Shown here: positions 14,896-36,283 of the stretch, in pieces | How the letters are laid out: the number at the start of each line of letters is the position of its first letter | Numbering within the stretch: position 1 is the first letter of the stretch | Origin: a virus | Lineage: Duplodnaviria > Caudoviricetes | DNA length: 64,000 bases | IMG/VR virus record: IMGVR_UViG_2716884858_000003 | Span: 1-64,000 of that record | Reading direction: 5' to 3' (one strand) | Position numbers and translations under genes: made by a program | The notes under the pieces: generated by a model | Databases searched by the model: none | What the model was told of the DNA's origin: nothing | Seen by the model: the letters and a program-made list of their open reading frames with translations, nothing else

Positions 14896-14958
14896 CCCAC
14901 CCCGGGGCGCTCCCGCCCGATACCGGAGCGCCCCGGCCACCGAGGAAGTGAGCCACCG

Positions 14959-15456
14959 ATGATCACCCGGCACCCGACCACCGCCGACGAGACAACCGGC
15001 ATGCAGCGCGGCCCGATCCGCTGGCCGGACGGCACCCCGCCCACCCCGTACGGCTGCCGCTGGTGCGGCATCGACCACGCGGAGCACCGCGACCGCCGCA
15101 CCGCGGCGGCCGGCCTGCACACCTGGCAGCGGCCCACCAACGCGCAGATCCTGGCCCGCATGCGCGCCCGCCGCGCCGCCCGCGCCGAGGCCCGCCGCCT
15201 GGCCGCCGTCCTAGTCGCGTTCGAGCGGGCCGCCGGCCTGGTCGGCCCGGCCGAACGCCGCCGCCGGGAACGCGCCGCCGCCCGCCGTTCCTGCACCACC
15301 TGCGAGCACTTCCTTCCCGCCACGCCCGTGGAGGAGCAGTGCAACCCCGACGGGTGCGGTTGCACCGGGTATCCGGACGCCTGCGACGTCCGCGCCGTCC
15401 CGGCAGGCACTGCCCTGCCCCTCGTCGGCTGCGCCAGGTGGGAGGCCGCCCGGTGA
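14959..15456 (+). CDS. Hypothetical phage protein
   Basis: PYGCRWCG..H...W.RPT.AQI.ARM motif. Confidence 0.6.
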   Translation: MITRHPTTADETTGMQRGPIRWPDGTPPTPYGCRWCGIDHAEHRDRRTAAAGLHTWQRPTNAQILARMRARRAARAEARRLAAVLVAFERAAGLVGPAERRRRERAAARRSCTTCEHFLPATPVEEQCNPDGCGCTGYPDACDVRAVPAGTALPLVGCARWEAAR

Positions 15457-15707
15457 GCGACGAGACCGAGACCGCCCCCGCCTTCCAGCTCACCCCCGAA
15501 CGCGTGGGGAGGATCCGCGAGTTGCTCGCCGAGCTCGTCACCGCCTGCGCCCCGCACGGCAAGGAGACCGTCGGCGACGCCGAGCACCGCGAGACGCTCG
15601 CCCGCTGCCGGGACGCCATCACCGACCTGATCAACGAGCGGGACGCCCTGGTCAAGGCCAACGGGGAGGCCGGCGAAGAACTGGCCCGCTGGATGGGGGA
15701 CCTGTGA
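15453..15707 (+). CDS. Hypothetical phage protein
   Basis: GTGA overlap, GGAGG RBS. Confidence 0.55.
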   Translation: MSDETETAPAFQLTPERVGRIRELLAELVTACAPHGKETVGDAEHRETLARCRDAITDLINERDALVKANGEAGEELARWMGDL

Positions 15708-16615
15708 CCGAGACCCGCAAGAAGCCCGGCCCACACCCGCAGGAGGCCCAGATCCTGGCCCTGATCGCACAGGGCCTGAACAACGCCGCCATCGCGGAGC
15801 GCCTGTTCTGTGGGCCTCGCGCGGTCCGCAAGGTGCGCGAGAACAATGACCTGCCCCCAGCGTCGCGCAACTCCTGGCGCCTGCCGCACCCCAAGGAGAA
15901 GGAGATCCGGCGGCTCCTGGCGGAGGACCTGACCGACGCGGAGATCCACCGCCGCACCGGCGCCAGTCCCGAGACGATCGCCACCAGGCGCAAGGAACTG
16001 CGTATCGGCCGGGCCCCGATGCCCAAGCCCAAGGCGCGCCCCCACCCCCGGGAGGCGGAGATCCTGGTGGAACTGCGGGCAGGCGGCACCAACAACGGCA
16101 TCGCCCGCAAGCTGGGCGTGGACAAGGTGGCCGTGGGCCGGATCCGCGGGGACCACCGCATCCCCAACACCTACGAGCGCAAGCGCGCCGAGCAGCCCAC
16201 CCTTGAGCAGCGCTGGCAGGAACTGGCCCGCACAGTGACCGGCGGACACGCGGAGTGGACCGGCAAGCGCAGCACGCCGTCCAACACGCCGATCCTGCGC
16301 CACCTCGGATCCTGGTACAGCCCGGCCGCCATCGCGTTCCGCATGCGCACCGGCCGGGAGCCTCACGGCCAGGTCCGCGCGGAATGTGACTTCCCCCAGT
16401 GCGTGGCCCCGGCCTGCGTGGAGGACGAGCCCGGCCGCCAGGCCCTGCGCCGACACCTCCGCGCCCTCCAGGGCCTGGGTCCCGTCCCGGACACCTGCCC
16501 CGGCAGCCACGACCAGGCCGTCGACGGCCGCCTCGACGCCAGCCTTCACGCCTACTGCGAGGGCTGCAAGCGCGACAAGGCGCGCGCCAAGAAGCAGGCA
16601 CGCACGACCACCTGA
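15704..16615 (+). CDS. Triple-HTH protein with degenerate HNH-like C-terminus
   Basis: Three PHPxE..I..L...G..N..IA repeats; CDFPQCVAP. Confidence 0.7.
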   Translation: MTETRKKPGPHPQEAQILALIAQGLNNAAIAERLFCGPRAVRKVRENNDLPPASRNSWRLPHPKEKEIRRLLAEDLTDAEIHRRTGASPETIATRRKELRIGRAPMPKPKARPHPREAEILVELRAGGTNNGIARKLGVDKVAVGRIRGDHRIPNTYERKRAEQPTLEQRWQELARTVTGGHAEWTGKRSTPSNTPILRHLGSWYSPAAIAFRMRTGREPHGQVRAECDFPQCVAPACVEDEPGRQALRRHLRALQGLGPVPDTCPGSHDQAVDGRLDASLHAYCEGCKRDKARAKKQARTTT

Positions 16616-16689
16616 CGCACCACCAACAGCCCGGGCCGCCCCCGCCCGATACGCGGGCCGGCCCGGCACCGACCAGAAAGACACCAGCC

Positions 16690-17164
16690 ATGACCACCAC
16701 CAACATCACCGACGCCGCCGGCCGCACCGTCCACCAGCAGGACCACGTGGGCGGCACCACCTCCGGCCGCTACCAGAACACCATCACCGGGCCCGTCGTC
16801 CAGATCGGGCGGGGCAAGGTCAAGGTCCGCGTGACCAACCGGCCCACCGTCGGCAGCGCGCGCCCAGAACGGCGATGACGTGTGGATCAGCGACGACCGC
16901 GTGTTCCTCATCCACCCCGCCACGGAGCGCCGGTTCACCGGCTACCGCACCCCGGACGGCCGGGTATGGACCCAGGCCGCCCGCGTCAAGGGCGTCCTGT
17001 GGGAGGCCCCGTTCGTGCCCGAGCGGTACGAGGCCACCCGCCTGCGCGGCATGTACGACGGCAACCTCCAGCCCGTGTGGGAGGACGTCCCCGCCCCCGC
17101 CGCCGATGAGGCCCAGCACGCCCACGACACCGCCCCCGGCCCGAACGCCGAGACCACCGCCTGA
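16690..17164 (+). pseudogene. Hypothetical gene probably split by a frameshift near 16865
   Basis: ORF 16690-16878 and ORF 16880-17164 join as ...SARP/NGDDVWISDD across a frame change; second ORF has no RBS. Confidence 0.4.
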
Positions 17165-17239
17165 CGCAAGACGGCGCCGATCGTCCCCACCCGATATGGG
17201 GGCCATCGGCGCCGGCACTCACCGTACTGGAGGAGCCCC

Positions 17240-17488
17240 GTGGCCGAGCAGCCCACTCCGCAGAAGACACCCGCCGAACGCGCGGCCGACCGCCCGCGCA
17301 CCTGGCGGCCGGACGGCCCCGGCTCCTTCCAGGCCCCGGACGGCGTCACCGCCGTCACCGACCGCACAGGCCGCCCGTGGACCCGCAACACCACCCGCTG
17401 GACGTGCACCGGCACCTGCTGGATCCGCTGGCGCGTCCTGGTCGCCGAGCACGGCCCGGTGACCGAGGCGAGACGAGCCCGGCCATGA
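17240..17488 (+). CDS. Hypothetical phage protein
   Basis: GGAGGAG RBS; W..LVAEHGPVTE ending. Confidence 0.65.
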   Translation: MAEQPTPQKTPAERAADRPRTWRPDGPGSFQAPDGVTAVTDRTGRPWTRNTTRWTCTGTCWIRWRVLVAEHGPVTEARRARP

Positions 17489-17910
17489 CCTGGGGCAGGC
17501 GGGTGCGCATCGCCCTGTACACCGTGGCGTTCGCCGTCCTGGGCTGGCACGGCGCCGCCGCCCTGTTCGCCGGCGTCTGGGTGCTCGCCGCCGCGCTCTA
17601 CGCCCTGGCGCTCGTCTTCGCCGTCGCCGCCTACGCGGAGTGGAGCACCGCCGCGGCATACGCCGACGCGGTCGACGCCCGCCTGCCCACCGACCCCACC
17701 AGCCGCGGCCACGCCCGCCTGCTCGCCCGCCGCGTCCTGCGCGACACGTGCGGCTGCAACCGCTGGTGGACCTCCTTCGGCACCGACCACGACCCCTGGT
17801 GTCCCGCCCAGACAGGAGCAGCCCATGCCCGAGCCCGCACCCGTCGACCCGTACCGCGACGCCGAGCTGTGGCAGCTGCTCGCCGTCACCACCGACACCG
17901 AGCGCGGTGA
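17485..17910 (+). CDS. Membrane hypothetical protein
   Basis: ATGA overlap, two hydrophobic segments, CGCNRWW..G.DHD..CP. Confidence 0.55.
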   Translation: MTWGRRVRIALYTVAFAVLGWHGAAALFAGVWVLAAALYALALVFAVAAYAEWSTAAAYADAVDARLPTDPTSRGHARLLARRVLRDTCGCNRWWTSFGTDHDPWCPAQTGAAHARARTRRPVPRRRAVAAARRHHRHRAR

Positions 17911-17977
17911 ATCCCCGCCAGGGCCGCGCCTGCCAGCCGGCACCGCTCGCCACCGTCACCCCGATCCGGAGCAACCG

Positions 17978-18406
17978 ATGACGACTCCGCCCGATCCCTG
18001 GCCCCTGCCGCAGCGCGGCCCGCTCATGCCGATGAACGGCACGGCCACCTGCCACACCAAGGATCACGAGAGCGCGCCCGTGTGCGGCAGGCCAGCCACC
18101 TGGCATATCGCCTGGACCCTCGAACCCGGCGTCGCCTCCTCCTTCGCCTGCGACGTGCACATGGACGCCATCCGCGCCGAGTACGTCTACACCGACCGCC
18201 ACCCGGTGGGCGCGGCCTGCCCGCTGCCCGGCATGACCTGGTGGGGCCTGCACGGACGGTGCGCCCTCGACCTCGACACCAGCCACGACCACACCCCCCC
18301 GGGAGATCACCCATGGCCGCCACTGACTGCGTCGGGTTCCTCGACGCCGACCTGCCGCCCGTACCGCCGCCCACCCCGCGAGCGCCTGCCGCCCTCACCG
18401 AGCTGA
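17978..18406 (+). CDS. Cys/His-rich hypothetical protein
   Basis: CGRPATWH...ACDVH motif; exact ends uncertain. Confidence 0.45.
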   Translation: MTTPPDPWPLPQRGPLMPMNGTATCHTKDHESAPVCGRPATWHIAWTLEPGVASSFACDVHMDAIRAEYVYTDRHPVGAACPLPGMTWWGLHGRCALDLDTSHDHTPPGDHPWPPLTASGSSTPTCRPYRRPPRERLPPSPS

Positions 18407-18876
18407 TCGCCGGCACTCTGTGGCCGCTCGCCGATTGGAAAGGCGACCGCGCCCAGTGCGAGCGCGCCGCCCAGGCCGTCGTCCGCCTCATCGTCTCCGT
18501 CAGCGCCACGACCGCCGCCCTGTATCGCGCGGCGGACGAGGAGACGCAGCGCCTGGTCGTCGACGCCGCCCGGGCGAACGCCACGATCGACCACCTGCGC
18601 AGCTGCATGGCCCGGTTGACCGGCCACAACCGCCAGGACCTGGACCCCCTGGCCGAGGCCAACTACGAGGCACGCGCCCGCGAGGCCGCCGTCGCCCAGG
18701 CCCGCCAGTGGGCCGAGCGGGCCCGCACCGCGGAGACCGCCGTCGACCGCGTCACCGCCTGGTGCAACGACCTCGACCACCGCGCCAAGGACCAGGCCGG
18801 CCCGGACGCCGTCCACCCCGTGGCCGCCCACGTCCGCCATCACCTGGCCGGCGCCACCGAGGAGGGACCGAAGTGA
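18313..18876 (+). CDS. Hypothetical phage protein
   Basis: GGAG RBS, coding-like composition. Confidence 0.55.
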   Translation: MAATDCVGFLDADLPPVPPPTPRAPAALTELIAGTLWPLADWKGDRAQCERAAQAVVRLIVSVSATTAALYRAADEETQRLVVDAARANATIDHLRSCMARLTGHNRQDLDPLAEANYEARAREAAVAQARQWAERARTAETAVDRVTAWCNDLDHRAKDQAGPDAVHPVAAHVRHHLAGATEEGPK

Positions 18877-19622
18877 CCGACCGCGAAACCCTCGACGGCC
18901 TGCTGGGGGAGTGGGTCACGGTCCGCAACCCGGACCTGCCCGTCTCCTGGTACGGGCGCCTCGTCGGACTCCACGACGACCCCGGCGTGCTGCTCGCCAT
19001 CCCCGGCCGCGGCGGTACCTGCCTGCCCCAGCGCTACACCATCGCGGCCGCCGAGGCGCCCGCCGCCGTCCCGGCCGCCCAGGGTCTGCCGGACGGCGCC
19101 CTGGACTCCGCGGCCGCCGGCGCCGACATGCTCGATGCCTGGGCCCAGACCCCGGCCGGCCGCAACCTCCTCGCCCACGCCCTGACCCAGCTCGCCAGGG
19201 ACGGCTGGCTGCGCCCCGAGCCCGGCGACGGCTGGGACCCCGTCCCCGTCCCCGACCCCGTCGCGCCCACGCCTGGGACCGCCCCGGCGGACACGCGTCC
19301 GGACATGTCCAAGACCGAGGCGGACAGCCGGGGCGGACACGTCCGGACACGCGATGCCGGCGAGGAGCCGCGCACCTGCCTCACGCCCCCGACCAGGACA
19401 GACGTTGTCCGGACACACCCGGACACGGACACGGCGGACACCCCGGACCTCGGTGTCCGGATCGAGTACCGGGCCCGCGTCCGCCGGGACCAGGTCCACT
19501 TGGCCCTCACCGAAGCCTTCAACGCCATCGCCCGGGAAACCGACCGGTGCGAGTGCGGCCAGCGCGGCGAGTTCATCAGCGCCGACAGCAGCGGTGCCCA
19601 CTGGCACGCCGCCCCCGACTAA
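18873..19622 (+). CDS. Hypothetical phage protein containing a GGACA motif cluster
   Basis: GTGA overlap, GGAGG RBS. Confidence 0.55.
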   Translation: MTDRETLDGLLGEWVTVRNPDLPVSWYGRLVGLHDDPGVLLAIPGRGGTCLPQRYTIAAAEAPAAVPAAQGLPDGALDSAAAGADMLDAWAQTPAGRNLLAHALTQLARDGWLRPEPGDGWDPVPVPDPVAPTPGTAPADTRPDMSKTEADSRGGHVRTRDAGEEPRTCLTPPTRTDVVRTHPDTDTADTPDLGVRIEYRARVRRDQVHLALTEAFNAIARETDRCECGQRGEFISADSSGAHWHAAPD

Positions 19623-19641
19623 CCCGCGAGCCGCGTATCGC

Positions 19642-19992
19642 CTAGTCCGGGAAACCGAGCGCCGTGTCCGGGCGGCAGTGAGTGCACGCCGGCACCTGGT
19701 GCCGCAACGCGTCCACCGCCTGCTCCCGGGTGACCGGACGGCACCGGCCGCTCTTCGCCGCCGCCCAGCAGTCGCCCATGTGTACAGATTCGACGTTGCG
19801 GCGGTTCAGGCCGAACTGCACCAGCCACTCGGGCCGCTGCTGCTCCCGCTCCTCGGCATGCCGCCGCTCGGCATCCCGGCGCCTTTCCTCGTCGATCCAC
19901 CTGTCCAGCTGCGCCAGACTCGTCAGCGCCTGCTGCTCGACCACGCGCCGCGCGAACAGCAGCAGGTCCAGGCGAGACGGCGTGTCGTTCAT
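19642..19992 (-). CDS. DUF6233-like protein
   Basis: W.VQ.G...VH.GDCW...TREQA.DAL...VPAC.HCRPDTALG. Confidence 0.8.
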   Translation of the reverse strand: MNDTPSRLDLLLFARRVVEQQALTSLAQLDRWIDEERRRDAERRHAEEREQQRPEWLVQFGLNRRNVESVHMGDCWAAAKSGRCRPVTREQAVDALRHQVPACTHCRPDTALGFPD

Positions 19993-20042
19993 GTGTTCGA
20001 TTCTAGGTGTGAGTGGGCGATTCCAGCCAACCCCAAACCGGA

Positions 20043-21735: not shown

Positions 21736-21910
21736 CCGGATTGTCCTGCGCCATCGATCCTTGAGCGTTTGCAGTCGAACCTTGGCGGACACGGATCTCT
21801 GCCGCCGAACTCCGAGCAGAGCCCGTGACGGTCGCCTCAGGGCGATGGTCCCGGCGTGCATGATGACCATCGGACGGCTGCCACCGCGTGTTCGTGATCT
21901 GGGGGGATGG

Positions 21911-22759
21911 ATGGGGCGTATAGCCAAGGTTCGTGCGTACTGGGCGGACACGGCACCGTCGGTGAAGTGGGTGACCTATGTCTTCGTACCAGCAGGTGTC
22001 ATTCTCGGGGGTGCCGGACTCTACGGGGACGCCAACGGCTGGTGGGATGAACGAGGCTTCCTTGCGAACCTGTTGTCGAGTGCGACGAGCCTACTGTTCG
22101 GCGTGCCCACTGCTTTGATCATCCTCGGGCAGTTAGGAGCCCATCAGGCTGAAGCGCTGGAGCGTCGCGCAGTCCGAAGGCGCGCGCGGCTGGCCGTCGA
22201 CAGTTTCAAGCAGGCTTTGCTGCGGCTGTTTGCCCTAGACGACGTGGAACTGCTCGGCGAAACACTGCACCAGTTGTTGAGAGTCACTTTTCAATGGACT
22301 GAAGCCCTGAAGTTGCTCGGCGAGGATGAGGCGAGTAGACGTGCCCTCCTCGAGGCGATCGAGAACCGCGATCTGCTCATCGGGGCATGCCTGAAGTTGC
22401 GCCGCCCCCTCGACATCGGCGAGTGGCAGGACGAACTAGTTCTGCGGTGGAGCCAGTTGGATGACGACATTCGCCCTCGAGTCGAGGGCGCTGGGCTCCA
22501 TTGGATGCCTCCTACCACCTATATGACGGTACGCAGGGACTTCGAGCGCATCAACCAAGACTGGGAAGGAGCGGGTCCTTTCACAGGAGTTGACCGATAT
22601 GTGCGAGTCCTCTTCGGCGAGGAAGGGCGTCGCGGCGTAGGTGGCCCTGAACGCTGCCGCCAGCGGTTGGAGAGGCAAGGCGAGAACGACCGGCTGATGA
22701 TCTTCGCCCTGCTGTCGCTTCTGGGTGAGCTCCCCGAGATCGAGAAAATCGCGACCTGA
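21911..22759 (+). CDS. Two-TM accessory (moron-like) protein
   Basis: Two N-terminal hydrophobic helices then helical domain; atypical codon usage. Confidence 0.65.
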   Translation: MGRIAKVRAYWADTAPSVKWVTYVFVPAGVILGGAGLYGDANGWWDERGFLANLLSSATSLLFGVPTALIILGQLGAHQAEALERRAVRRRARLAVDSFKQALLRLFALDDVELLGETLHQLLRVTFQWTEALKLLGEDEASRRALLEAIENRDLLIGACLKLRRPLDIGEWQDELVLRWSQLDDDIRPRVEGAGLHWMPPTTYMTVRRDFERINQDWEGAGPFTGVDRYVRVLFGEEGRRGVGGPERCRQRLERQGENDRLMIFALLSLLGELPEIEKIAT

Positions 22760-23300
22760 GCTCGAACGGCAATGGTCACGGCGCCATGCGACACGCGGTG
22801 GGCGGCGCTCGGGAACTCCGCCACGTCCGCTGGCCCGCACGCCAGGCCCAGGATCTCGCCGGCCACGCGCACCCGCCAGCTGCCGCTCGGCGACACCACC
22901 ACGCGACGCTGCCCGGACATGCCCCCAGCATCAGCCCGCCGTCCGGACATGCACCCGGAGCGGTTCCAGCCCTGCCGCTGCTGCGCGCGACGTTGCGACC
23001 GGGGTCCGCTGCACCACCACGCAAGACATGCGCACTACGCCATTCGGGCCCACCCTGGAAGCGGCACCATCGGCTGCACAGGCCGACCATCCCCCGGGAG
23101 GTCCTGTGGTCCTGCTCGCACTGCTCATGCCCGGCCTGATGATCGCGTTCCTCTTCACCACGGACGCCGTCGAGGATTACCTCTTCCCACGCCTGCCAGC
23201 GGCAGGTGACGTGACACCTCCAGCCGACGACATACAACCGCGCTCCCCCTGACAACAGCGCCCCGTCCGGACATGCGCCCGGACAACGTCCAGACGCACG

Positions 23301-27659: not shown

Positions 27660-27663
27660 CCCC

Positions 27664-28808: not shown

Positions 28809-28821
28809 ACGGAGCCACCTC

Positions 28822-29220
28822 ATGGACGCAATCCATCTTGGAATCGGCGGCGTCGCCTCCGCCCTGGTCATCGTGCTGTGGTTCGGCACCAAGGGCGGCG
28901 GCAAGCTCGGCACCCTCTCCTGGGGGTGGACGCTGTTCCTCGCCATGGTCGCCGGCTGCGCCTTCAAGGCAGCGGGACAGCCGTGGTCCTGGTTCACCGA
29001 CCTGGTCAACGGCGGCCTGGGCATGATCGGCGACGCCGCGCCCGGTATCACCGCCGCAGGCATGGCCGTCATCCTCATCCTCATCGCCTGCTTCGTGAAA
29101 CTGACCCTGCGCAAGGTCGCGCTGGTCGGCGTGGCGTTCTTCTGCGTCGCCGCCGGCGCGGGCGGCCCCTTCCAGTGGTTCGCCGGCCGTATCGAGGTCG
29201 TCGCCATGCACTGGGCGTGA
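28822..29220 (+). CDS. Gly-rich membrane protein
   Basis: GGAG RBS, about 4 hydrophobic segments. Confidence 0.7.
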   Translation: MDAIHLGIGGVASALVIVLWFGTKGGGKLGTLSWGWTLFLAMVAGCAFKAAGQPWSWFTDLVNGGLGMIGDAAPGITAAGMAVILILIACFVKLTLRKVALVGVAFFCVAAGAGGPFQWFAGRIEVVAMHWA

Positions 29221-30425
29221 CGCCGATGACCGCCGCCCTGCACCTGGTCCCCGACCCCGACGAGCCCACCCCGCCGCCCGATACGGCAGGGGAGCAGCAC
29301 CCCACCGAGGCGGCCCCGGCCGCCGCCGAGGAGGAAGGGGAGGAGCTGCCCGGCGACGTCGAGCCGGGGGAGGAGGACGCCCCCGACGAAGACCAGGCCG
29401 ACCTGGAGGACGAGGAGTCCGCCCCCGGGCGGGCCCTCGCCATGCCCGACCTGCGCCCCTACGTCGATCCCTCATGGATCCCGGCCGTCATCAACGCCAG
29501 CGCCGAGGGCACCCGCCGCTGGCGCCAGCGTGCCCCGGAGCGCAAGGCCGCCCGCCGCGCGGAGAGGAAGAAGAGGGAGGCGGCCGGGGAGTTGTTCGGC
29601 CGGCGCAGGGCGTGGCAGATGGCCGCGGACTACCTGAACGGAACCCGCCTGCTGCTGGGCCACCTGGCCGCCTGGCTGTCGGGGGAGTACGGCCCCAAGG
29701 ACATGAAGGTGCCCGCCCGCCTGGCCGCGCTCGGCATCGCCGGATACTGCGCCGTGCGCACCGTCATGGCCTGGCCCGTCTGGGGCACGGTGGGCATCTT
29801 CACCGTGTGGTGCTGCGCCGCCCTCGGCGCCCTCCACCGGCAGCGCGCCGAGCAGGGCAAGAAGCAGCCCACCGGCACGGCCGCCAAGGGCGTGGCCAAG
29901 GTGCCCGGCCCGCCCCCCGCCGAGGGCCCCGCCGAGGACGCCGACGACTCCCCCGACGAGGCCGCCGACGAGGCCGCGGAGGAGGCTCCTGCAGAGCCCC
30001 CGCCGCCGCCCTCCCGAGAGGCCATCGCGGTGGCCCTTCACGGGCTCGTCGGGGAGGGCCGGGGGGTGTTGCTCACCACCCTCTGCCAGTACCTCTCACT
30101 CCCCCACACCCGGGCCGTCCGGGAGGCGCTGGACGGGGCCGGTATCCGGGTGCGCCCGGGGGTGCGCACGACGGCCGGCAACGGGCCCGGCGTCCACCTC
30201 TCGGATTTCCCGCCGCCGCCCCCCTCTCCTGACCCCGCCCAGGGGACCGGCGTTGTTGCAGGTGAGAGCGCCAACGCCAACACCAACAACGCCGAGAGCG
30301 ACCCTCAGAAGGGGTTGAGTGCAGACGGCAGCTATTGGCCGGAGGGGAAGGACTACCACCTGGAGCCGGACCCCTCCAACCCTCAGCGGACAGTGATCGT
30401 CTACCACCCGGACGACCGGCGATAG
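29217..30425 (+). CDS. Membrane protein with acidic linkers and C-terminal putative wHTH
   Basis: GTGA overlap; two TM; GVLLTTL...VR..L..AGIRVR.GVRT..GNGPGVH. Confidence 0.65.
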   Translation: MTPMTAALHLVPDPDEPTPPPDTAGEQHPTEAAPAAAEEEGEELPGDVEPGEEDAPDEDQADLEDEESAPGRALAMPDLRPYVDPSWIPAVINASAEGTRRWRQRAPERKAARRAERKKREAAGELFGRRRAWQMAADYLNGTRLLLGHLAAWLSGEYGPKDMKVPARLAALGIAGYCAVRTVMAWPVWGTVGIFTVWCCAALGALHRQRAEQGKKQPTGTAAKGVAKVPGPPPAEGPAEDADDSPDEAADEAAEEAPAEPPPPPSREAIAVALHGLVGEGRGVLLTTLCQYLSLPHTRAVREALDGAGIRVRPGVRTTAGNGPGVHLSDFPPPPPSPDPAQGTGVVAGESANANTNNAESDPQKGLSADGSYWPEGKDYHLEPDPSNPQRTVIVYHPDDRR

Positions 30426-30578
30426 CGTCGTCCGCCCGTTCGATAGACGGCGCGCCCGTCTCGGTCAGTTCGAGTCGGGCGCGCCGCTCATGTAACGGAT
30501 CGACACGGAACGGTTACGTACGGCGGCCGTGATCGGTCACCATGGGCAGAGACGTACGCGAGAAGGAGGGCGGCCGGA

Positions 30579-30815
30579 ATGGTCAGGCGGTACCGGTGCG
30601 ACGACTGCGGGGGCACGTCGGGCCTGTGCTTCACGGACGGCATGCTGTGGCGCGAGACGCAGCGCCACCGGCTGCTGGAGCACGCCGGCCTCCGCCCGGA
30701 CGGCGAGCGCGTCATCCACGTTCCGGTCGCCCGGCTGGTGGACGTGCCGCGCGGCCAGGCCATCGCCACGGTGGTCCTGTTCACCGTCCTGGTCGCCTGG
30801 GCGCTCCTGCGCTGA
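30579..30815 (+). CDS. Small zinc-finger membrane protein
   Basis: YRCDDCG...H...H, C-terminal TM; AAGGAGG RBS. Confidence 0.6.
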   Translation: MVRRYRCDDCGGTSGLCFTDGMLWRETQRHRLLEHAGLRPDGERVIHVPVARLVDVPRGQAIATVVLFTVLVAWALLR

Positions 30816-30840
30816 CCGCGCTCGCTCCCCCGCCCACAGT

Positions 30841-30876
30841 AAAGGGCCCGCGCTCCCCGTGGAGTGCGGGCCCTTT
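30841..30876. terminator. Bidirectional intrinsic terminator
   Basis: AAAGGGCCCGCGCTCC...GGAGTGCGGGCCCTTT between convergent genes. Confidence 0.8.
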
Positions 30877-30897
30877 CTGCCGCCTACGGCGCGGGCG

Positions 30898-31404
30898 CTA
30901 CGAGGCGCCGGCGGCTGCCTTCTTCCTGGCCTCCCGGCCCCACCGCATGATCGTGTTGCGGTCGAACTCGGAGGCGTCCGCCAGGGTCTGGGCGCTGGCG
31001 TGGTTGTCCAGGTAGTGCTGGGTGGCGGCGGCCTGGAGGGCGGCGTGCGTCTTGCTCTCGCGCTCCTCGGCCTTGGTGAAGTCGGTGGTGAGCCGGTCCA
31101 GCTCCGCCAGGGCGGCGGCCACCACTTCCGGGTCGTAGACAGGCACCTCGGCCGGCTGGCCTTTGACGCGTAGCGGCTTGACGCCGGCGTTGCGCGCGAT
31201 CACGCCGACGTGGTTGCGGTCGTAGGGGGTGTGGTCGGAGACCTCCCCGGGTGGGGCGTTGCGCTCCCGCAGGTGGCGCACGATCGCCTCTTGCAGGGCG
31301 TCCCGGGCGGCGGTGACGGCGTCCTTATCGGCGCTCAGCTTGGCGCGCTGGCGCTTGAGCTCGCGGACAGCACGAGCCTCGGTGGTGGGGTCGTAGGTCG
31401 GCAT
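30898..31404 (-). CDS. Tandem two-domain HTH-like regulator (candidate repressor of the 28-bp operators)
   Basis: Internal repeat YDP....A..EL...ALQ.A...H.....DRN; divergent from first operator. Confidence 0.65.
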   Translation of the reverse strand: MPTYDPTTEARAVRELKRQRAKLSADKDAVTAARDALQEAIVRHLRERNAPPGEVSDHTPYDRNHVGVIARNAGVKPLRVKGQPAEVPVYDPEVVAAALAELDRLTTDFTKAEERESKTHAALQAAATQHYLDNHASAQTLADASEFDRNTIMRWGREARKKAAAGAS

Positions 31405-31462
31405 GCCCAGCACTATGCCATATCGGGTTGCAATGTGGAAGCGCAGTAGTGCGCCGTGCGGG

Positions 31463-31496
31463 GCAACTTGACATTGCAATACTGAGTTGCAAGTAT
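31463..31496 (+). promoter_or_regulatory. 28-bp symmetric operator overlapping a sigma70-type promoter
   Basis: GCAACT-TGAC-ATTGCAAT-ACTG-AGTTGC; TTGACA-17 bp-AAGTAT. Confidence 0.82.
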
Positions 31497-31545
31497 GTGG
31501 GTGTCAGGACGGGCGAGGGGCCCGGCCGGAACGGAAGGACACGCC

Positions 31546-32610
31546 ATGAACACCACCACCGCCCCGGCCCAGGTCGGCAAGGGCCGCACCGTCCACCAGG
31601 TCCCCACCGGCGAGATGGTGACCCTGTGCGGCAGCACCGCCACCAGCGTCCTGACCGCCGCCGAGGCCCAGAAGGGCAAGGCGTGCGCCAAGTGCACCAA
31701 GATCGCCGCCCTGCGGACCGCCGCGGCCGCCACCGAGGCCCCGGCCGCCGAGGAGGCGCCCGCCGCCCCGGCCGAGCAGACCCCCGCCGAGGCCGCCCCG
31801 GCCGCCGAGATCGCCCCGGCCGTGGAGGCCGCCCCGGTGTGGCGCACCCTCAAGGGTGCGGGCACCAGTGGCGCGTTCATGATCTACGGCGACCTGCACG
31901 AGGCGCGCGGCAAGCTGATCTTCACCTCCTGGGGCACCGCGAAGCAGATCAAGGGCCAGCCGTACACCTTCACCCGCCAGTGGACCGAGAACCGCGGCTT
32001 CAACCGCTACCTGGAGGACGCCCTGGGCCGCACCGTGGAGTTCAACGGCGGCGTGGCCACCAGGGTCTGGATGGTGGACGGCGTCCCGACCCCGGCCGCC
32101 GAGCAGGCCCCCGCCGAGGAGCCCGAGGCCCCGGCCGTCGAGGAGGCCCCGGAGGCGGACGACGCCCCCGTCGAGGAGGCCCCCGAGATGGCTGCCGCCC
32201 CGGCCGGGCAGGTCCAGGTGACCGCCTACACCGCCGCCCGGGAGGCCCTGCATATCAACGGCCAGGACAACGACGACCGCACCCTGACCCTGGACGCCTC
32301 CGCCGTCCAGGAGACCGTGGCCGCCATGCGCCGCGTGCCCCGCTGGAACGCCGCACAGGAGCGGTTCACGGTCAACAAGGTCGCGCTGATCGTGGCCCAG
32401 GACGCCCAGGGGCAGCGCGTGTGGGTGCGCGGCGAGGCCGCCCCGATCCGGGTGGACCTCGCAGGCAACCCGGTCGCCGAGGACGCCCCCGCCGAGGTCG
32501 GCACCGTGGACATGGCCGCCGTCCTGGCCGCCACCCGGGTGCTGCGCCGCCGCGCGGAGGTCCGGCGGGTCATCGACAACCGCACCGCCGCCCGCGCCGC
32601 CAGCGCCTGA
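31546..32610 (+). CDS. Hypothetical early protein with acidic APAEE linkers
   Basis: AAGGA RBS; VH...LCG...CAKC N-terminal motif. Confidence 0.75.
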   Translation: MNTTTAPAQVGKGRTVHQVPTGEMVTLCGSTATSVLTAAEAQKGKACAKCTKIAALRTAAAATEAPAAEEAPAAPAEQTPAEAAPAAEIAPAVEAAPVWRTLKGAGTSGAFMIYGDLHEARGKLIFTSWGTAKQIKGQPYTFTRQWTENRGFNRYLEDALGRTVEFNGGVATRVWMVDGVPTPAAEQAPAEEPEAPAVEEAPEADDAPVEEAPEMAAAPAGQVQVTAYTAAREALHINGQDNDDRTLTLDASAVQETVAAMRRVPRWNAAQERFTVNKVALIVAQDAQGQRVWVRGEAAPIRVDLAGNPVAEDAPAEVGTVDMAAVLAATRVLRRRAEVRRVIDNRTAARAASA

Positions 32611-32700
32611 CCGACCGGCCCCGCCCAGGGGGACCGGGGCGCCGGCCGTTCCGGGGCCCTCGTACGACGCACGGGTGAACCGACCATGCAACCCCACAAA

Positions 32701-32734
32701 GCAACTTGACATTGCAATGTAGAGTTGCGAGAGT
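32701..32734 (+). promoter_or_regulatory. 28-bp symmetric operator/promoter copy
   Basis: GCAACT-TGAC-ATTGCAAT-GTAG-AGTTGC; TTGACA-17 bp-GAGAGT. Confidence 0.82.
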
Positions 32735-32785
32735 GTGAGTGTCAGGACGGGCGAGGGGCCCGGACGGAACCGGAGGGACAGCGCA

Positions 32786-33547
32786 ATGAACACCACCGCC
32801 AAGGCCGCGCAGCAGATCGCCCGCCTCGTTGAGGCCGAGGACGCCCTCACCACCGCCCGCCGCGAGGAGGCCCGCACCGCCAAGACGGCGGAGCGCGCCA
32901 CCGCCCGCGCCAAGGCCGCCCGCGCCAAGGTCGCCCCCGCCCGCACCGAACTGCGCAAGGCGGAGCGCGCCGGTAAGGGCGTGGCCGCCGCCACCCGCCG
33001 CCTGGCTGCCCGCATGGCCAAGGCCGCCGACCTGGCCCAGACCGCCCGGGAGGCCCGCTACGCCGCCCGCCTGGCCGCCCGCGCCGCCACCACCGCCGCC
33101 CGCCGACTGGACCGCCTGGCCCTGCGCGCCGCCACCACCGCCACCCGCATGGTGGGCGAGGTCGCCCAGCGCATGGGCGAGCGCGTGGCCACCCCCGCCG
33201 CCGAGCAGGACAAGACCCTGCCGGTGGAGGAGCTGCCCGCGGTCGCCGACATCGAGCAGCGCGCGGAGCGCTTCAAGACCCTGGACACCGAGGCCAAGGC
33301 CAAGGCCAAGCTGGCCGACGCCGAGAAGAAGTGGCTCCGCCGCCTGCCCGTGGGCACCTACGGCCGCGTGACCGTCACCCGCACCAACGGCGGCACCGTC
33401 ATCGACGCCGACCAGGTCGCCGTGGACTACCTGGACAACGGCCTGGGAGTGCCCCCGCGCAAGGGCCGCAAGGACACCTTCAAGGTCGCCCTGGAGGCCC
33501 CGGCGGTCGAGACCGCCGACCACGTGGCCCTGGTGATCGCAGCCTGA
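32786..33547 (+). CDS. Ala/Arg-rich coiled-coil hypothetical protein
   Basis: GGAGG RBS; helical N-terminus. Confidence 0.72.
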   Translation: MNTTAKAAQQIARLVEAEDALTTARREEARTAKTAERATARAKAARAKVAPARTELRKAERAGKGVAAATRRLAARMAKAADLAQTAREARYAARLAARAATTAARRLDRLALRAATTATRMVGEVAQRMGERVATPAAEQDKTLPVEELPAVADIEQRAERFKTLDTEAKAKAKLADAEKKWLRRLPVGTYGRVTVTRTNGGTVIDADQVAVDYLDNGLGVPPRKGRKDTFKVALEAPAVETADHVALVIAA

Positions 33548-33614
33548 CCCACAACCCCCACCCCGCCGGGCACCGTACGGTGCCCGGCCCCACCGAAGGA
33601 ACGGAGCACACCCC

Positions 33615-34040
33615 ATGTCGATCCTGCCCCGCTACACCCCCGAGGTTCACCTGACCGCCCTCCGCGAGGAGCTGACCGCCGCCGGCATCGAGCTGGGCCC
33701 CGTCAAGCCGGGCACCCGCGTGACCCGCGTCGTGGACCACGGCGGAATCCGCTGGGAGCTGACGTTCCTCGGAGACCGCTACGGGTGGGCCCTGCGCGGC
33801 CCCGGCATTGAGCACGGCGTGGGCATGGACGCCCCGGAGGCCGCCGAGCGCATCGCCGCCGCCGCCCTGGATGCCGAGGAGCCCGGCATCCCGGCACCGG
33901 CCACCTGGCGCGGCGTGCCCGTGCCCGAGGAGTACGCCACCCGCTGGGACAGCCCGGCCGCCGTCGCCTGGCGAGAGGGAGCAGGCGCCGCCCTGGCCGT
34001 CGCCAAGCTGACCGCCGTCGCCGCCCAGGGTGACAGCTGA
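33615..34040 (+). CDS. Hypothetical early protein
   Basis: GGAG RBS. Confidence 0.7.
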   Translation: MSILPRYTPEVHLTALREELTAAGIELGPVKPGTRVTRVVDHGGIRWELTFLGDRYGWALRGPGIEHGVGMDAPEAAERIAAAALDAEEPGIPAPATWRGVPVPEEYATRWDSPAAVAWREGAGAALAVAKLTAVAAQGDS

Positions 34041-34105
34041 CCCCCGCCCCCACCGCCCGGGCGCACCCGATAGGCGCCCGGCCCCCCACGGAAGGAGCCA
34101 CCGCC

Positions 34106-34288
34106 ATGGCCGCACCTGCCCTGTACGGAGTCGCCGCCCGCTCCGTCGCCACCGGCGACCTGATCACCTGCGACTCCGCGTTCGACCTGGAGGACCTGCC
34201 TGCCCTGCTGGAGGGCTACCGCATCCGCTACGCGGACCGCGACGACGTGCTGATCGACCTGGACACCACCCCCCTGGCCGCCAACTGA
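34106..34288 (+). CDS. Small acidic hypothetical protein
   Basis: AAGGAG RBS; flanked by CCCGAT hairpins. Confidence 0.65.
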   Translation: MAAPALYGVAARSVATGDLITCDSAFDLEDLPALLEGYRIRYADRDDVLIDLDTTPLAAN

Positions 34289-34409
34289 CCCCACCCACCC
34301 GGGCCGGGGCGGGCGCACCCGATGGGCGCCCGCCCCGGCCCCTGCTGCTGGAGGCCCCTGGGTGACCCGCAGGGGTGAACCTCTCGCCATGCGGCACGCA
34401 CTCCACATT

Positions 34410-34443
34410 GCAACTTGACATTGCAATGTCGAGTTGCAATCAT
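34410..34443 (+). promoter_or_regulatory. 28-bp symmetric operator/promoter copy
   Basis: GCAACT-TGAC-ATTGCAAT-GTCG-AGTTGC; TTGACA-17 bp-AATCAT. Confidence 0.82.
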
Positions 34444-34496
34444 GGCGAACACCGGGAAGGGCGCAGGGCCCGACCGGAACCCCCCAGGAGCACCAG

Positions 34497-35012
34497 ATGG
34501 CCGCCACCACCGCCGCCCGCACCGCCACCCCGTACGCGTACCGCCAGTGCGCCGCCCGCGCCCGCGACCTAGCGGACATCCTCCGCACCCGCCTGGACGG
34601 CCACCCCCACCGCAGCGAGCTGCTGGTGTTCATCGGCCACCTGCACACCGCCGCCGAGGGGTTCGAGACCGCCGAGCCCCTGGTCATGGACGGCGTGACG
34701 ATCCCCAACGTCGCCCCCGCCGAGGGCCACCTGCCCCTGCTCATGGCCGCCGGCCACGCCGCCGACCACCCGGAGGTCGGCATCTCGGAGGCCGTGTTCG
34801 CCTACGTCACCGCCCCCGTCACCCGCCGCACCTACCGCCTGGAGCCGCTGACCGGCGGCGGCCTCGAGGACGCCGAGCTGCGCACCCGCATCGCCCTGGC
34901 GGAGCACGACCTGGCCACCGAGGGCGACCCCACCACCCGCTACGCCCTCCTGGCCACCCTCGTGCAGCTCCACGGCGACCACCTCGCCCGCGGCGGCCAG
35001 GTCGCCGCCTGA
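34497..35012 (+). CDS. Hypothetical early protein
   Basis: AGGAG RBS. Confidence 0.7.
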   Translation: MAATTAARTATPYAYRQCAARARDLADILRTRLDGHPHRSELLVFIGHLHTAAEGFETAEPLVMDGVTIPNVAPAEGHLPLLMAAGHAADHPEVGISEAVFAYVTAPVTRRTYRLEPLTGGGLEDAELRTRIALAEHDLATEGDPTTRYALLATLVQLHGDHLARGGQVAA

Positions 35013-35097
35013 CCCGCCCCCGTCAGGCCGGGCGCACCCGATATGCGCCCGGCCCCCGGCCCCACTCCCCAGCGCCACCAGGAACGGAGCACCACCC

Positions 35098-35835
35098 ATG
35101 CGCTATTACGCCACCGCCCAGAACATCGGCGGCCGGGCCGTCCAGTGCGACGCCGCCGCCGTGCACACCGCCCCTGGGGGCGCACGCGCCTACGTCTTGC
35201 TTGACGGCATCGGTGACAAGCCGCACGTGCGCGACTGGACCCGCACCGCCGCCCGCCGCCTCGCCCGCAGCGCCGCCCAGCTCCTCGACGCCGCCGCCGG
35301 CCTGCGCGGGGAATACATCCGCTACGCCGCCGAGCCGGACCGCCACGGCCCCCGGGGAGCGGGCCCCATGGCGTGCGCCGTCGTGGCCGTCGAGGCCCCT
35401 GGCCGGCCGCTCACCGTCGCCTGGTGCGGCGACGTGCGCGCCTACTGGCTCGTGCGCGGCACCCTGCGCTGCCTCACCCAGGACCACAACCTGCGCCGCG
35501 TGTTCCCGCCCTGCGAGACGTACCCGGCGGGCGGCAGTCGCCACGCGGTCACCAGCTGCCTCGGCTCCGTCAATGGCGACGAGGAGCTGATGCGCGAGGT
35601 CCGGCACCCGGCCATCGAGACGGCCGCCATCGGCGCCGAGCGCGGGCGCCTGCTGCTCGCCTGCGACGGCGCATACGAGCCCCACGAGGACGCCGGACAC
35701 CAGCTCTCCGACCTGCTGTACGGCCCGCCCGCCGAGGCCGCCCGCCGCGTCGTCAACGACGCCGTGGCCACCGCCCTGACCGTCACCCACCGGCCGGACA
35801 ACGCCACCGCCCTGGTGGCCGACCTGTACGTGTAA
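35098..35835 (+). CDS. PP2C/PPM-family Ser/Thr phosphatase
   Basis: R..QCDA, LLDGIG, AWCGDVRAY, LTQDH, LLLACDG, DNAT motifs. Confidence 0.85.
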   Translation: MRYYATAQNIGGRAVQCDAAAVHTAPGGARAYVLLDGIGDKPHVRDWTRTAARRLARSAAQLLDAAAGLRGEYIRYAAEPDRHGPRGAGPMACAVVAVEAPGRPLTVAWCGDVRAYWLVRGTLRCLTQDHNLRRVFPPCETYPAGGSRHAVTSCLGSVNGDEELMREVRHPAIETAAIGAERGRLLLACDGAYEPHEDAGHQLSDLLYGPPAEAARRVVNDAVATALTVTHRPDNATALVADLYV

Positions 35836-35926
35836 CCGCAGGCCGGACGATGTCCGGACGCGTCCGCCCCCTGTTCTGGGACGCGTCCGGACATCGGCCC
35901 GGGGTGGCGCGCCCGACACCCATATT

Positions 35927-35960
35927 GCAACTTGACATTGCAATATGGAGTTGCCAATAT
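35927..35960 (+). promoter_or_regulatory. 28-bp symmetric operator/promoter copy
   Basis: GCAACT-TGAC-ATTGCAAT-ATGG-AGTTGC; TTGACA-17 bp-CAATAT. Confidence 0.82.
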
Positions 35961-36009
35961 GGATCACGTGAGGGAGGGCAAACGGCCCGACCGGAACGGA
36001 GCGAACGCC

Positions 36010-36186
36010 ATGAATACCTACACCGTCGGCCAGCGCGTACGGATCACCGTCGACCTGGACCCCGAGAAGTACCCGATCGGCACCGAGACCACCGTCACCG
36101 GCCACTGTGACCTGAGCGGCTTCCCGTGCATCACCCTCGGCGGCCAGACCGTGACCATGATCCCCGGCCACCTCCTCCCCGCCTGA
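36010..36186 (+). CDS. Small SH3-like-barrel hypothetical protein
   Basis: YTVGQRVRI...GTE.TVTG; GGAG RBS. Confidence 0.6.
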   Translation: MNTYTVGQRVRITVDLDPEKYPIGTETTVTGHCDLSGFPCITLGGQTVTMIPGHLLPA

Positions 36187-36283
36187 CCCAACGCCAGGCG
36201 CCGGGGGCCGCACCCGATATGCGGCCCCCGGCGTTCACCCACCGAGACCGGCCACCAGCCACAGGCCCCCGAAAGGAACCCCG

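What the first reader, a model, noticed from the sequence alone, without database searches (positions are those of the whole stretch)
14902..36233. Family of intergenic hairpins with variable stems but a conserved CCCGATA loop
Seen: hairpins at 14902-14936, 16631-16666, 17172-17214, 34057-34081, 34301-34341 (loop ACCCGATGG), 35026-35054 and 36199-36233. All are in + orientation within about 20 nt after a TGA stop, most are shortly before the next RBS, and none has a U-tract. Stems differ in sequence yet still pair, while the loop is conserved. Weaker copies occur before the replication gene (about 13767-13779) and after folE (about 47291, no stem). Inference: a loop-specific signal such as an antitermination or processing site, a translational control element, or an ssDNA recombination site delimiting single-gene cassettes. 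I know no described element with this loop.
Basis: partly seen in the sequence, partly recalled or inferred. Interest (0 to 1): 0.8.

Follow-up and report, generated by a model that had tools for sequence, protein, structure and literature searches.

The report
Gene-end hairpins sharing one fixed loop
A 114-kb temperate Streptomyces phage ends many of its early and accessory genes with strong hairpins whose stems differ but whose loop always reads CCCGATA, which suggests that an unidentified factor reads the loop, and the hairpins also mark the joints where related phages have swapped genes.

Summary
All seven hairpins exist at the stated places. They lie on the + strand, 5-22 nt after a TGA stop, and have 0-2 T in the next 10 nt. 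CCCGATA is the only 7-mer that recurs as a hairpin centre in the window: 5 copies plus one CCCGATG, every other 7-mer 2 or fewer. Three related prophages carry the same loop at orthologous sites. Loop identity is 257/259, stems 88%, flanks 67-73%, and 13 of 14 stem pairs covary. A second loop class, CTCGACC, with the same architecture occurs in four other Streptomyces phage records, up to about 17 copies each. The shared core is C-Y-C-G-A.

In two host genomes the family is almost confined to the prophage. It matches no Rfam family. Homology between relatives breaks exactly at hairpin edges.

My best reading is U-tract-less intercistronic or gene-end RNA hairpins whose loop is read by an unknown factor, and which also serve as recombination joints, as PeSL cassettes do in T4-type phages. 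No experiment or RNA-end data support the mechanism. Earlier notes of this scan describe the CTCGACC kind on other DNA. I found no paper describing either class.

The parts
13760..13786 (+). Weak family copy (loop CCCGATA, 8 of 10 pairs) in the leader between a promoter-like site at about 13718 and the replication gene
   Evidence: The loop is kept with different stems in G001 (14299) and G002 (14385), ahead of a different replication gene.
14902..14936 (+). Hairpin A, 13 of 14 pairs, loop CCCGATA, 6 nt after the TGA of the replication gene
   Evidence: (E 9.8e-7). It travels with this type of replication gene. Homology to G001 and G002 resumes 7-15 nt after it.
16629..16667 (+). Hairpin B (bulged stem), loop CCCGATA, after the HTH-HNH gene 15704-16615
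   Evidence: E 8.9e-5. Orthologues in G001, G002 and G004 have different stems and the same loop.
17172..17214 (+). Hairpin C, 18-bp stem with one mismatch and one G.T, loop CCCGATA
   Evidence: Its 31-nt core (12 + 7 + 12 nt) scored 100% identical in four phages, while the flanks are 60-84% identical.
29269..29291 (+). Weak copy (7 of 8 pairs) inside my ORF call 29217-30425
   Evidence: (E 0.08). Two tandem copies lie at the same place in G001. Its status is unresolved.
31421..31427 (-). CCCGATA on the - strand, just upstream of the - strand gene 30898-31413, with only a 4-5 bp mini-stem
   Evidence: The identical context is kept in G002.
34055..34083 (+). Hairpin, loop ACCCGATAG (A.G at the closing position), 14 nt after a stop and 22 nt before the next start
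   Evidence: (E 1.5e-6). Orthologues in three relatives.
34301..34341 (+). Strongest hairpin (-46.3 kcal/mol), loop ACCCGATGG, followed about 70 nt later by a promoter-like site
   Evidence: (E 6e-7). Relatives carry unrelated 3-6 kb insertions right after it. One relative (L055) keeps only the 5' arm plus CCCGgta.
35026..35054 (+). Hairpin, 11 of 11 pairs, loop CCCGATA, before the PP2C-like gene
   Evidence: (E 8.2e-8). Loop 42/42 and stem 139/144 positions identical across the four phages.
36199..36233 (+). Hairpin E, loop CCCGATA
   Evidence: (E 1.4e-7). It is the only block shared where four phages combine different upstream and downstream genes.
47291..47297 (+). CCCGATA plus TGCG of a 3' arm, with no 5' arm, right after the folE-like gene
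   Evidence: no stem. Possibly a remnant.
33565..33588 (+). Control: a non-family gene-end hairpin (gccgggcacc GTAC ggtgcccggc)
   Evidence: The stem is kept and the loop varies in relatives, the opposite of the family.
34415..34426 (+). One of five promoter/operator-like repeats TTGAYATTGCAA (also at 13718, 31468, 32706, 35932) that start the transcription units holding the hairpins
   Evidence: The -35/-10 reading is my inference from the sequence.

Best explanation
These are gene-end, intercistronic stem-loops formed in the messenger RNA of the repressor-controlled early and accessory region of a temperate Streptomyces phage. This is inferred, not shown. Each folds about 5-20 nt after a stop codon and lacks a U-tract. 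It most likely sets or protects a 3' end, or attenuates read-through into the next cistron, as the U-less hairpins of actinomycetes and of phiC31 early genes are reported to do. The loop has core C-Y-C-G-A inside A-CCCGATA-K here and CTCGACC in another phage group. It is kept by selection, so an unidentified trans-acting reader, phage or host, probably binds or cuts it and makes the punctuation conditional (inferred). Because each hairpin is a conserved island of about 30 nt between variable genes, it also serves as a joint for homologous exchange of gene cassettes between phages. The junction pattern is shown; the process is inferred.
For: **Structure.** 86.4% of cells pair against 58.2% in shuffles (0 of 500 shuffles reach it). 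13 of 14 pairs change on both sides. Sliding the partner by 1-3 columns drops pairing to 29-47% (24 hairpins that I chose, weak copies left out).

**Selection on the loop.** Loop identity is 257/259, against stems 783/888 and flanks 67-73%, in 8 orthologous sets. An unbiased search for 5-mers shared by 3 or more hairpins with 2 or more different stems, run on 27 sources, gave a full 7-nt loop family for CCCGATA and CTCGACC only; the other sources gave GC-rich 5-mers at most, and L060 a short CTCCG loop at 4 sites. Among 66 distinct family hairpins there are 40 distinct 9-nt arm segments.

**Tie to genes.** Of 72 strict members in 8 records, 58 follow a co-oriented gene, with a median of 11 nt from stop to stem base (IQR 7-15). 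Copies among - strand genes are flipped with them (G005 31748 and 36057; G006 34292; five such copies in the looser count).

**Phage-specific.** In an 8.5-Mb and a 9-Mb host genome, 12 of 14 model hits lie in the prophage. In the record itself, all hits lie at 14.9-36.2 kb.

**Not canonical terminators.** There are 0-2 T in the next 10 nt. Several hairpins sit between genes of one promoter unit.

**Joints.** Four gene combinations surround hairpin E. A replication gene plus hairpin A is swapped as a block. Cassette genes are shared between the two loop classes.

**Background.** Streptomyces terminator hairpins are long, poor in U and have a median loop of 4 nt (PMC12207403, passages read).
Against: - No RNA data exist. 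Only contigs of relatives were available, and they cannot show ends.
- No candidate reader was found by Pfam or PHROGs in the whole record.
- A strand test gave no support for the + strand. Inside the stems, G.T/T.G mismatches number 8 against 15 A.C/C.A, and the - strand folds as well or better in 35 of 39 cases, an effect of the C-rich flanks.
- A few copies are inverted relative to their genes: G005 27915, G006 22838, probably G007 24147 and G003 16559.
- 6 of 72 strict members fall inside my crude ORF calls.
- Mycobacterial RNA polymerase is reported to need a U-tract (PMC3993855; search listing and start of abstract only). Termination by these hairpins is therefore doubtful.
- The junction pattern fits a DNA-level role equally well.
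- Gene calls are my own GC3-based calls, so distances are approximate.
Confidence: 0.5

Rival explanations
1. The element works on DNA. The extruded or single-stranded hairpin is nicked or bound in its loop by a nuclease or recombinase, so that genes between two hairpins move as cassettes, in the manner of integron attC sites, rolling-circle origins or REP/RAYT elements. The fit to transcription would be secondary.
For: - Homology between relatives breaks at the hairpin edges.
- One cassette in L055 is flanked by two hairpins.
- L055 keeps a 5' arm plus CCCG followed by unrelated DNA, so the break lies in the loop. 47291 is a loop with a partial 3' arm.
- The hairpin flips together with its gene.
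- The strand test does not favour RNA.
- An HTH-HNH protein sits beside hairpin B. It is the only early protein family I found in both loop classes, in G005 and G007 but not in the sampled parts of G003 and G006.
- From memory, not from any call: phiX174 and pC194-type origins are nicked at CTTG/ATA.
Against: - No HUH, Rep, relaxase, Y1 transposase or integron-type integrase was found by Pfam across the record. The only recombinase is a phage tyrosine integrase at the prophage end.
- RecT/YqaJ recombination at any conserved island of about 30 nt would give the same junctions without a dedicated enzyme.
- The tight spacing of about 11 nt from stop codons and 22-46 nt to the next start is not needed for recombination.
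- Stems that differ between copies lower homology, which argues against selection for recombination alone.
Confidence: 0.2
2. These are ordinary U-less terminator or stabiliser hairpins with no reader. The loop would be kept because it gives the hairpin a favourable fold or folding rate, as the CUUCGG hairpins of T4 do, or because copies are homogenised by gene conversion.
For: - Phages are known to reuse one very stable loop in many intergenic hairpins with varied stems (CUUCGG; PMC8948821, passage read).
- Three stem types (C, D, E) are nearly identical across phages, which fits recent spread or conversion.
- No reader was found.
Against: - No special stability is known for these 7-9 nt loops (my knowledge), and the folding program assigns them none.
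- Two different loops share C-Y-C-G-A rather than one optimum.
- Conversion would homogenise stems too, yet in sets 5'UTR, A and B the stems are 56-76% identical with the loop at 100%.
- Neighbouring non-family hairpins in the same phages use diverse loops. phiC31 shows no such loop family.
Confidence: 0.15
3. The hairpins are nut/boxB-like loading sites. A phage antiterminator binds the loop on the nascent RNA and makes RNA polymerase read through downstream stops.
For: - The architecture is a conserved loop on a variable stem.
- A copy lies in the leader right after the promoter-like site at 13718 and is kept in relatives ahead of a different gene.
- Each of the units starting at 13718, 32706, 34415 and 35932 holds at least one copy.
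Against: - There are many copies per unit, up to about 17 in class-B phages, not one per operon.
- Most copies sit at gene ends, not near promoters.
- I saw no boxA-like flank when reading the flanks; this was not tested formally.
- No small arginine-rich N-like protein is recognisable.
- The unit starting at 31468 has no copy before the next promoter.
Confidence: 0.1
4. The hairpins are single-strand initiation (sso-like) signals for lagging-strand priming on displaced + strand DNA.
For: - The element is strand-specific, with a conserved loop on variable stems.
- From memory, not from any call: ssoA origins have a conserved 6-nt loop.
- The first cluster lies just right of the iteron-bearing replication gene.
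Against: - Orientation follows gene direction, including flipped copies among - strand genes.
- Copies are confined to 14-36 kb of 114 kb.
- Spacing is tied to stop codons.
Confidence: 0.04

Closest known systems
PeSL (promoter-early stem-loop) cassettes of T4-type phages (Arbiol et al. 2010, PMC2839356, abstract and section 13 read; Comeau et al. 2014, PMC4122927, abstract read)
   Same: Both are repeated intergenic stem-loops beside early promoters in the variable, ORFan-rich part of a phage genome. Both act as, or look like, terminators or attenuators, and both sit at the points where related phages have exchanged genes.
   Different: In PeSLs the conserved part is the sigma-70-type promoter, and the stem-loop is a variable G/C run. 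Here the conserved part is the loop. Most copies have no adjacent promoter. The host and phage type are unrelated. Mini-circles were not tested.
U-less hairpin 3' ends of Streptomyces and the poly-U-less early terminators of phage phiC31 (Ingham, Hunter & Smith 1995: title seen only in the reference list of PMC2602773, paper not held; TERMITe survey PMC12207403, passages read)
   Same: Both are long GC-rich hairpins without a U-tract after genes, in the early region of a temperate Streptomyces phage with many repressor-controlled promoters.
   Different: No conserved loop is described for them. In the phiC31 genome I found diverse loops on such hairpins, and whole-palindrome repeats (CCTACTC ACGT GAGTAGG) instead. 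The median Streptomyces terminator loop is 4 nt and lies further from the CDS. Here loops are 7-9 nt and stems start about 11 nt after the stop.
Lambdoid nut boxB hairpins read by N protein (recalled, no call)
   Same: An RNA hairpin whose loop, not its stem, carries the specificity. Different phages use different loops.
   Different: There is one site per operon near the promoter, with boxA and a known reader. Here there are many sites at gene ends, and no boxA or reader was found.
CUUCGG intercistronic hairpins of T4 and other phages (Tuerk et al. 1988, as summarised in PMC8948821, passage read)
   Same: One fixed loop on many different stems, mostly intergenic, in phage genomes.
   Different: That loop is a hyperstable tetraloop, which explains its reuse. 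These are 7-9 nt loops with no known special stability, and they come in two related versions.
Integron attC sites and REP/RAYT elements (recalled, no call)
   Same: Strand-specific folded repeats at gene ends that bound movable gene cassettes or spread in intergenic DNA.
   Different: Those families are defined by conserved stem-base boxes or stems and by a cognate integrase or Y1 transposase. Neither was found here, and the family is not spread through the host genome.

Membership tests
Canonical intrinsic (Rho-independent) terminator | GC-rich hairpin directly after a gene | tested here: met
Canonical intrinsic (Rho-independent) terminator | U-tract of about 7-9 nt right after the stem | tested here: not met
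   0-2 T in the 10 nt after each of the seven stems.
Canonical intrinsic (Rho-independent) terminator | RNA 3' ends or termination at the site | not testable with these tools
   Only contigs of relatives were available.
U-less actinomycete / phiC31-type early terminators | Stable hairpin without a U tail after genes of a Streptomyces phage early region | tested here: met
   Termination activity itself was not tested.
PeSL cassettes | Stem-loop joined to a conserved sigma-70-type early promoter | tested here: inconclusive
   A promoter-like repeat follows 34301-34341 in the window, but not the other six hairpins. In class-B phages an operator-like palindrome often follows the hairpin.
PeSL cassettes | Located at exchange points between related phages, next to genes of unknown function | tested here: met
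Lambdoid nut (boxA + boxB + N) | Hairpin with a loop-borne signal | tested here: met
Lambdoid nut (boxA + boxB + N) | One promoter-proximal site per operon, with boxA and an N-like reader | tested here: not met
   Several gene-end copies per unit. No N-like protein by PHROGs or Pfam. BoxA was checked only by eye.
Integron attC | Integron integrase and conserved R/L boxes at the stem base | tested here: not met
   Stem bases vary. The only tyrosine recombinase is the phage integrase at 1-1809. No IntI-specific test was run.
REP/RAYT or IS200/IS605-type hairpins | Y1 HUH transposase and spread through the host chromosome | tested here: not met
   No such Pfam family in the record. 12 of 14 model hits in two host genomes lie in the prophage, but only 150 of about 15,000 first-look candidates were scored.
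Rolling-circle dso/sso hairpins | HUH Rep protein that nicks the loop | tested here: not met
   No Rep or relaxase family found. Many proteins remain unassigned.
Any Rfam family | Match to a curated covariance model | tested here: not met
   No match at the hairpins at E up to 1, in window 13-38 kb or in 39 kb of G005.

The most novel reading that the evidence does not exclude
C-Y-C-G-A loops on free-form stems are a shared punctuation code of a broad group of roughly 100-kb temperate Streptomyces phages. A dedicated reader, protein or RNA, binds or cuts the loop and so decides whether transcription or the message continues past each accessory gene. That would be a new factor-dependent termination, antitermination or processing system. 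The same islands would drive cassette exchange between phages. In the boldest version, the HTH-HNH protein beside hairpin B nicks the extruded loop.
Probability: 0.3. Interest if true: 0.85.

Novelty: new variant of a known kind. Interest (0 to 1): 0.6.

Why it matters
Gene-end hairpins without U-tracts are the commonest and least understood RNA 3'-end signal in Streptomyces and its phages. A family in which selection holds the loop fixed while stems drift gives a clean handle. It predicts a specific reader that could be fished out with a 30-nt bait. It offers a test of whether U-less hairpins terminate, pause or protect. It also shows, at single-nucleotide resolution, where large temperate actinophages swap accessory and defence genes. 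If a reader exists, it would be a new regulatory layer and a portable, orthogonal part for Streptomyces engineering.

Tried and rejected
- **Rfam.** No match at the hairpins.
- **Isolated phages.** No record in the phage collection carries the hairpin. The nearest isolate, TurkishDelight, shares only genes.
- **The 15-mer CGCACCCGATATGCG in viral contigs.** It gave 45 loci; only L011 and L012 were relevant and the rest were chance.
- **The 15-mer GCCACTCGACCTGGC.** It matched 90 stretches. I screened loci L104-L195, as many as were held. Four loci from three records carry real hairpin families (L125, L126, L155, L172), and one AT-rich locus (L184) is a chance hit.
- **The HNH/HTH protein as anchor.** It gave no viral loci.
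- **Strand test by wobble pairs.** No support for the + strand; confounded by C-rich flanks.
- **Sequencing runs.** No run holds half of the sampled words. One RNA library holds contigs of a roughly 90%-identical relative, which cannot show ends or even transcription. DNA contigs of X5 break at the repeated hairpin 35026-35055, an assembly effect.
- **Candidate reader.** Small basic proteins are listed, but none has an RNA-binding family hit. Shared-protein profiling between loop classes found only the HNH family and scattered cassette genes, and only about 40% of the class-B records was sampled.
- **Ideas considered and dropped for lack of fit, all from reasoning or recall:**
  - tRNA T-loop or anticodon-loop mimicry: C at loop position 1 where tRNA has U54, and no U33 in class A.
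  - Hairpin promoters of an N4-type polymerase: no phage RNA polymerase found.
  - Targets of the IS110 elements at 50.9-55.2 kb: their flanks lack the motif.
  - CRISPR-repeat mimics: stem and loop sizes differ.
  - Pairing of the loop with rRNA: not tested.
- **Papers.** Ingham et al. 1995 could not be read.

Full report
**What the window is**

The window is the first 64 kb of a 114,478-bp provirus record with 70.8% G+C. Family scans show a temperate Streptomyces-type phage:
- a tyrosine integrase at 1-1809, then a Cro-like repressor and an excisionase;
- YqaJ/RecT, a RuvC-like resolvase, WhiB and several HNH genes;
- a replication gene with internal iterons;
- a long stretch of small genes of unknown function;
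- an ABC-3C defence-like cluster on the - strand;
- ParB-like genes and 7-deazaguanine genes;
- a terminase with a LAGLIDADG insert, and three IS110-type genes.

Its only DNA relatives among isolated phages are Streptomyces phages. Gene coordinates in this report come from my own GC3-based calls and are approximate.

**Check of the observation**

- They lie on the + strand, 5-22 nt after a TGA stop.
- Six of seven end 22-44 nt before the next start.
- The 10 nt downstream hold 0-2 T.
- CCCGATA is enriched: 11 copies against 3.2 expected, with 0 of 100 shuffles reaching 11.
- In a census of every hairpin-centred 7-mer it is the only repeated one: 5 copies plus CCCGATG, all others 2 or fewer, and shuffles give at most 3.
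- The weak copies at 13770 and 47291 exist.
- I add 29277 (inside an ORF call) and 31427 (- strand, before a - strand gene).

Stems fall into about five types rather than seven. The three copies at 34-35 kb share the inner stem.

**Relatives**

I used the PP2C-like gene (35098-35835) as an anchor. It returned 8 viral loci and 12 loci from bacterial genomes.
- Three loci carry the same loop at orthologous places: L046 (4 copies), L054 (5 copies) and L055 (4 copies).
- One locus (L063) carries hairpins of the same design with the loop CTCGACC or CTCGACG.
- The other 16 loci have no such family.

I aligned 24 hairpins that I chose, leaving out the weak copies. On this alignment 86.4% of cells pair against 58.2% in shuffles (0 of 500), 13 of 14 pairs change on both sides, and loop positions 1, 3, 4 and 5 are invariant.

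A covariance model built from the alignment gave these results:
- In the record itself it finds the seven hairpins and nothing else below E 0.006.
- In the two host genomes of 8.5 and 9 Mb it finds 6 and 8 hits. All 6, and 6 of the 8, lie in the prophage, including a second cluster about 20 kb upstream that matches the window's 14.9-17.2 kb cluster.
- Only 150 of about 15,000 first-look candidates were scored in those genomes.

**Selection on the loop**

In 8 orthologous sets across four phages, identity is as follows:

| Segment | Identity |
|---|---|
| Loop | 257/259 |
| 12+12 nt of stem | 783/888 (56-76% in sets 5'UTR, A and B; 97-100% in sets C, pre-PP2C and E) |
| 40-nt flanks | 67% upstream, 73% downstream |

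The neighbouring non-family hairpin at 33565-33588 does the reverse: its stem is kept and its loop varies.

**A second loop class**

A scan for a class-B 15-mer matched 90 stretches. Four of the screened loci, from three more viral records of 98-99 kb, one with terminal repeats, hold real families. In the roughly 39 kb fetched from each:
- G005 and G007 hold about 17 copies and G006 about 8.
- The loop is (A/C/T)CTCGACC(G/T/C/A), on many unrelated stems.
- The hairpin is often followed by an operator-like palindrome TGTAGCTACA.

Across 8 records I collected 66 distinct family hairpins: 19 of class A and 47 of class B. They have 40 distinct 9-nt arm segments. 44 of 47 class-B cores are exactly CTCGACC and 16 of 19 class-A cores are exactly CCCGATA. 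The regular expression used for collection fixes positions 1, 3, 4 and 5, so the unbiased evidence is. Both classes favour A before the core and T or G after it, closed by C-G.

One class-A prophage (G001) also has a CTCGACC hairpin among its - strand genes. This weakens a simple picture of one phage with one reader specificity.

**Position and orientation**

Of 72 strict members, 58 follow a co-oriented gene, 8 do not and 6 lie inside my ORF calls. The median distance from stop to stem base is 11 nt (IQR 7-15) and to the next start 46 nt.

Copies lying among - strand genes are flipped and keep the same spacing. A few copies are clearly inverted: G005 27915, G006 22838, probably G007 24147 and G003 16559.

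**Mosaic joints**

Around hairpin E the four phages show the arrangements X-E-Q, X-E-P, Y-E-P and Y-E-R-D-P, where D is another family hairpin. Only the 31-nt hairpin is shared by all four.
- After 34301-34341, relatives carry unrelated insertions of 3-6 kb.
- L055 keeps only the 5' arm and CCCGgta at that site.
- The replication gene plus hairpin A is replaced in G001 and G002 by another replication gene without a hairpin, and homology resumes 7-15 nt after hairpin A.
- Some cassette genes occur in both loop classes.

**Mechanism**

What is shown:
- a folded element under selection;
- a loop more constrained than its stem;
- a tight tie to gene ends and gene direction;
- confinement to the prophage;
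- location at exchange joints.

What is inferred:
- that the fold acts in RNA;
- that it sets or protects 3' ends or attenuates read-through;
- that a factor reads the loop.

Points against, or left open:
- There are no RNA-end data.
- No reader was found.
- The wobble test gave no + strand signal.
- A few copies are inverted.
- U-less hairpins may not terminate by themselves (PMC3993855; search listing and start of abstract only).

The DNA-level rival, loop nicking or cassette exchange, is kept at 0.2. Its enzyme is missing, and RecT-type recombination at any conserved island would explain the joints.

**Comparison with known systems**

The nearest described systems are PeSL cassettes and U-less Streptomyces and phiC31 terminators. 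The nearest analogies for a fixed loop on free stems are boxB (recalled) and the CUUCGG hairpins of T4. Each fails at least one defining feature; the membership table gives the details.

My searches found no paper describing CCCGATA or CTCGACC loop families. The library lacks most subscription journals.

Earlier notes of this scan report the same kind of family on other DNA: CUCGACC, CTCGACT and CGCACGACC loops. My class-B result agrees with the first of these. I did not check the others. If they are correct, they fit the core C-N-C-G-A.

**Verdict**

This is a real, selected, phage-borne hairpin family. It is a new loop class of an undescribed but recurrent kind of gene-end punctuation. Its function is unproven.

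Noticed in passing
window 13718, 31468, 32706, 34415, 35932 (+): Five copies of TTGAYATTGCAA, flanked by further (A/G)TTGCAA(C/T) words. They look like sigma-70-type promoters with repressor operators and start the units that hold the hairpins. Class-B phages use TGTAGCTACA palindromes in the same role.
   Followed up: partly
window 14235-14420: Iteron-like direct repeats (GGTTCGGGCCACAGTGGCAC and variants) inside the replication gene, probably the origin.
   Followed up: no
window 11108-11160, 11201-11252, 35848-35897: A second hairpin type built from GTCCGGAC words, with long variable loops. Relatives carry similar ones after the PP2C-like gene.
   Followed up: no
window 16690-16878 and 16880-17164: Two adjacent ORFs between hairpins B and C match a single fused ORF in G001, G002 and G004. 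The window copy is split by a stop or frame change.
   Followed up: no
window 29269-29291; G001 29173 and 29293: A family-like hairpin inside the low-complexity N-terminal coding part of gene 29217-30425, duplicated in tandem in G001 where it encodes a PAPDTAGEQH-type repeat.
   Followed up: partly
window 38091-41753 (-): DUF3732, MC3 and CTD7/Cap4-nuclease genes: an ABC-3C-type defence cluster carried as a reverse-strand insert. It is absent from the three close relatives.
   Followed up: no
window 50915-55239 (-): Three tandem IS110-family transposase genes, each of 414 aa, with repeated spacers.
   Followed up: no
window 42477-47287 and 36795-37649: Three ParB-like genes plus a DpdA/TGT-like gene and QueD-, QueE- and FolE-like genes, a 7-deazaguanine DNA-modification set. 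The TGT-like gene is duplicated in L046.
   Followed up: no
window 47916-50567: A large terminase gene of 883 aa with a LAGLIDADG domain at residues 301-362, probably an intein.
   Followed up: no
window 55995-62174 (-) and record 62582-69250 (+): Divergent giant genes of 2059 aa (Laminin_G_3 domains) and 2222 aa (RHS repeat) in the middle of the provirus record.
   Followed up: no
L055 6160-6330: A remnant of the hairpin after the 60-aa gene: the 5' arm plus CCCGgta, then unrelated sequence. The break lies within the loop.
   Followed up: partly
G003 29589-30972 (L063 region): Three tandem paralogous genes of 117-118 aa. The last two are each followed by a CTCGACC hairpin, which suggests that gene and hairpin duplicate together.
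   Followed up: no
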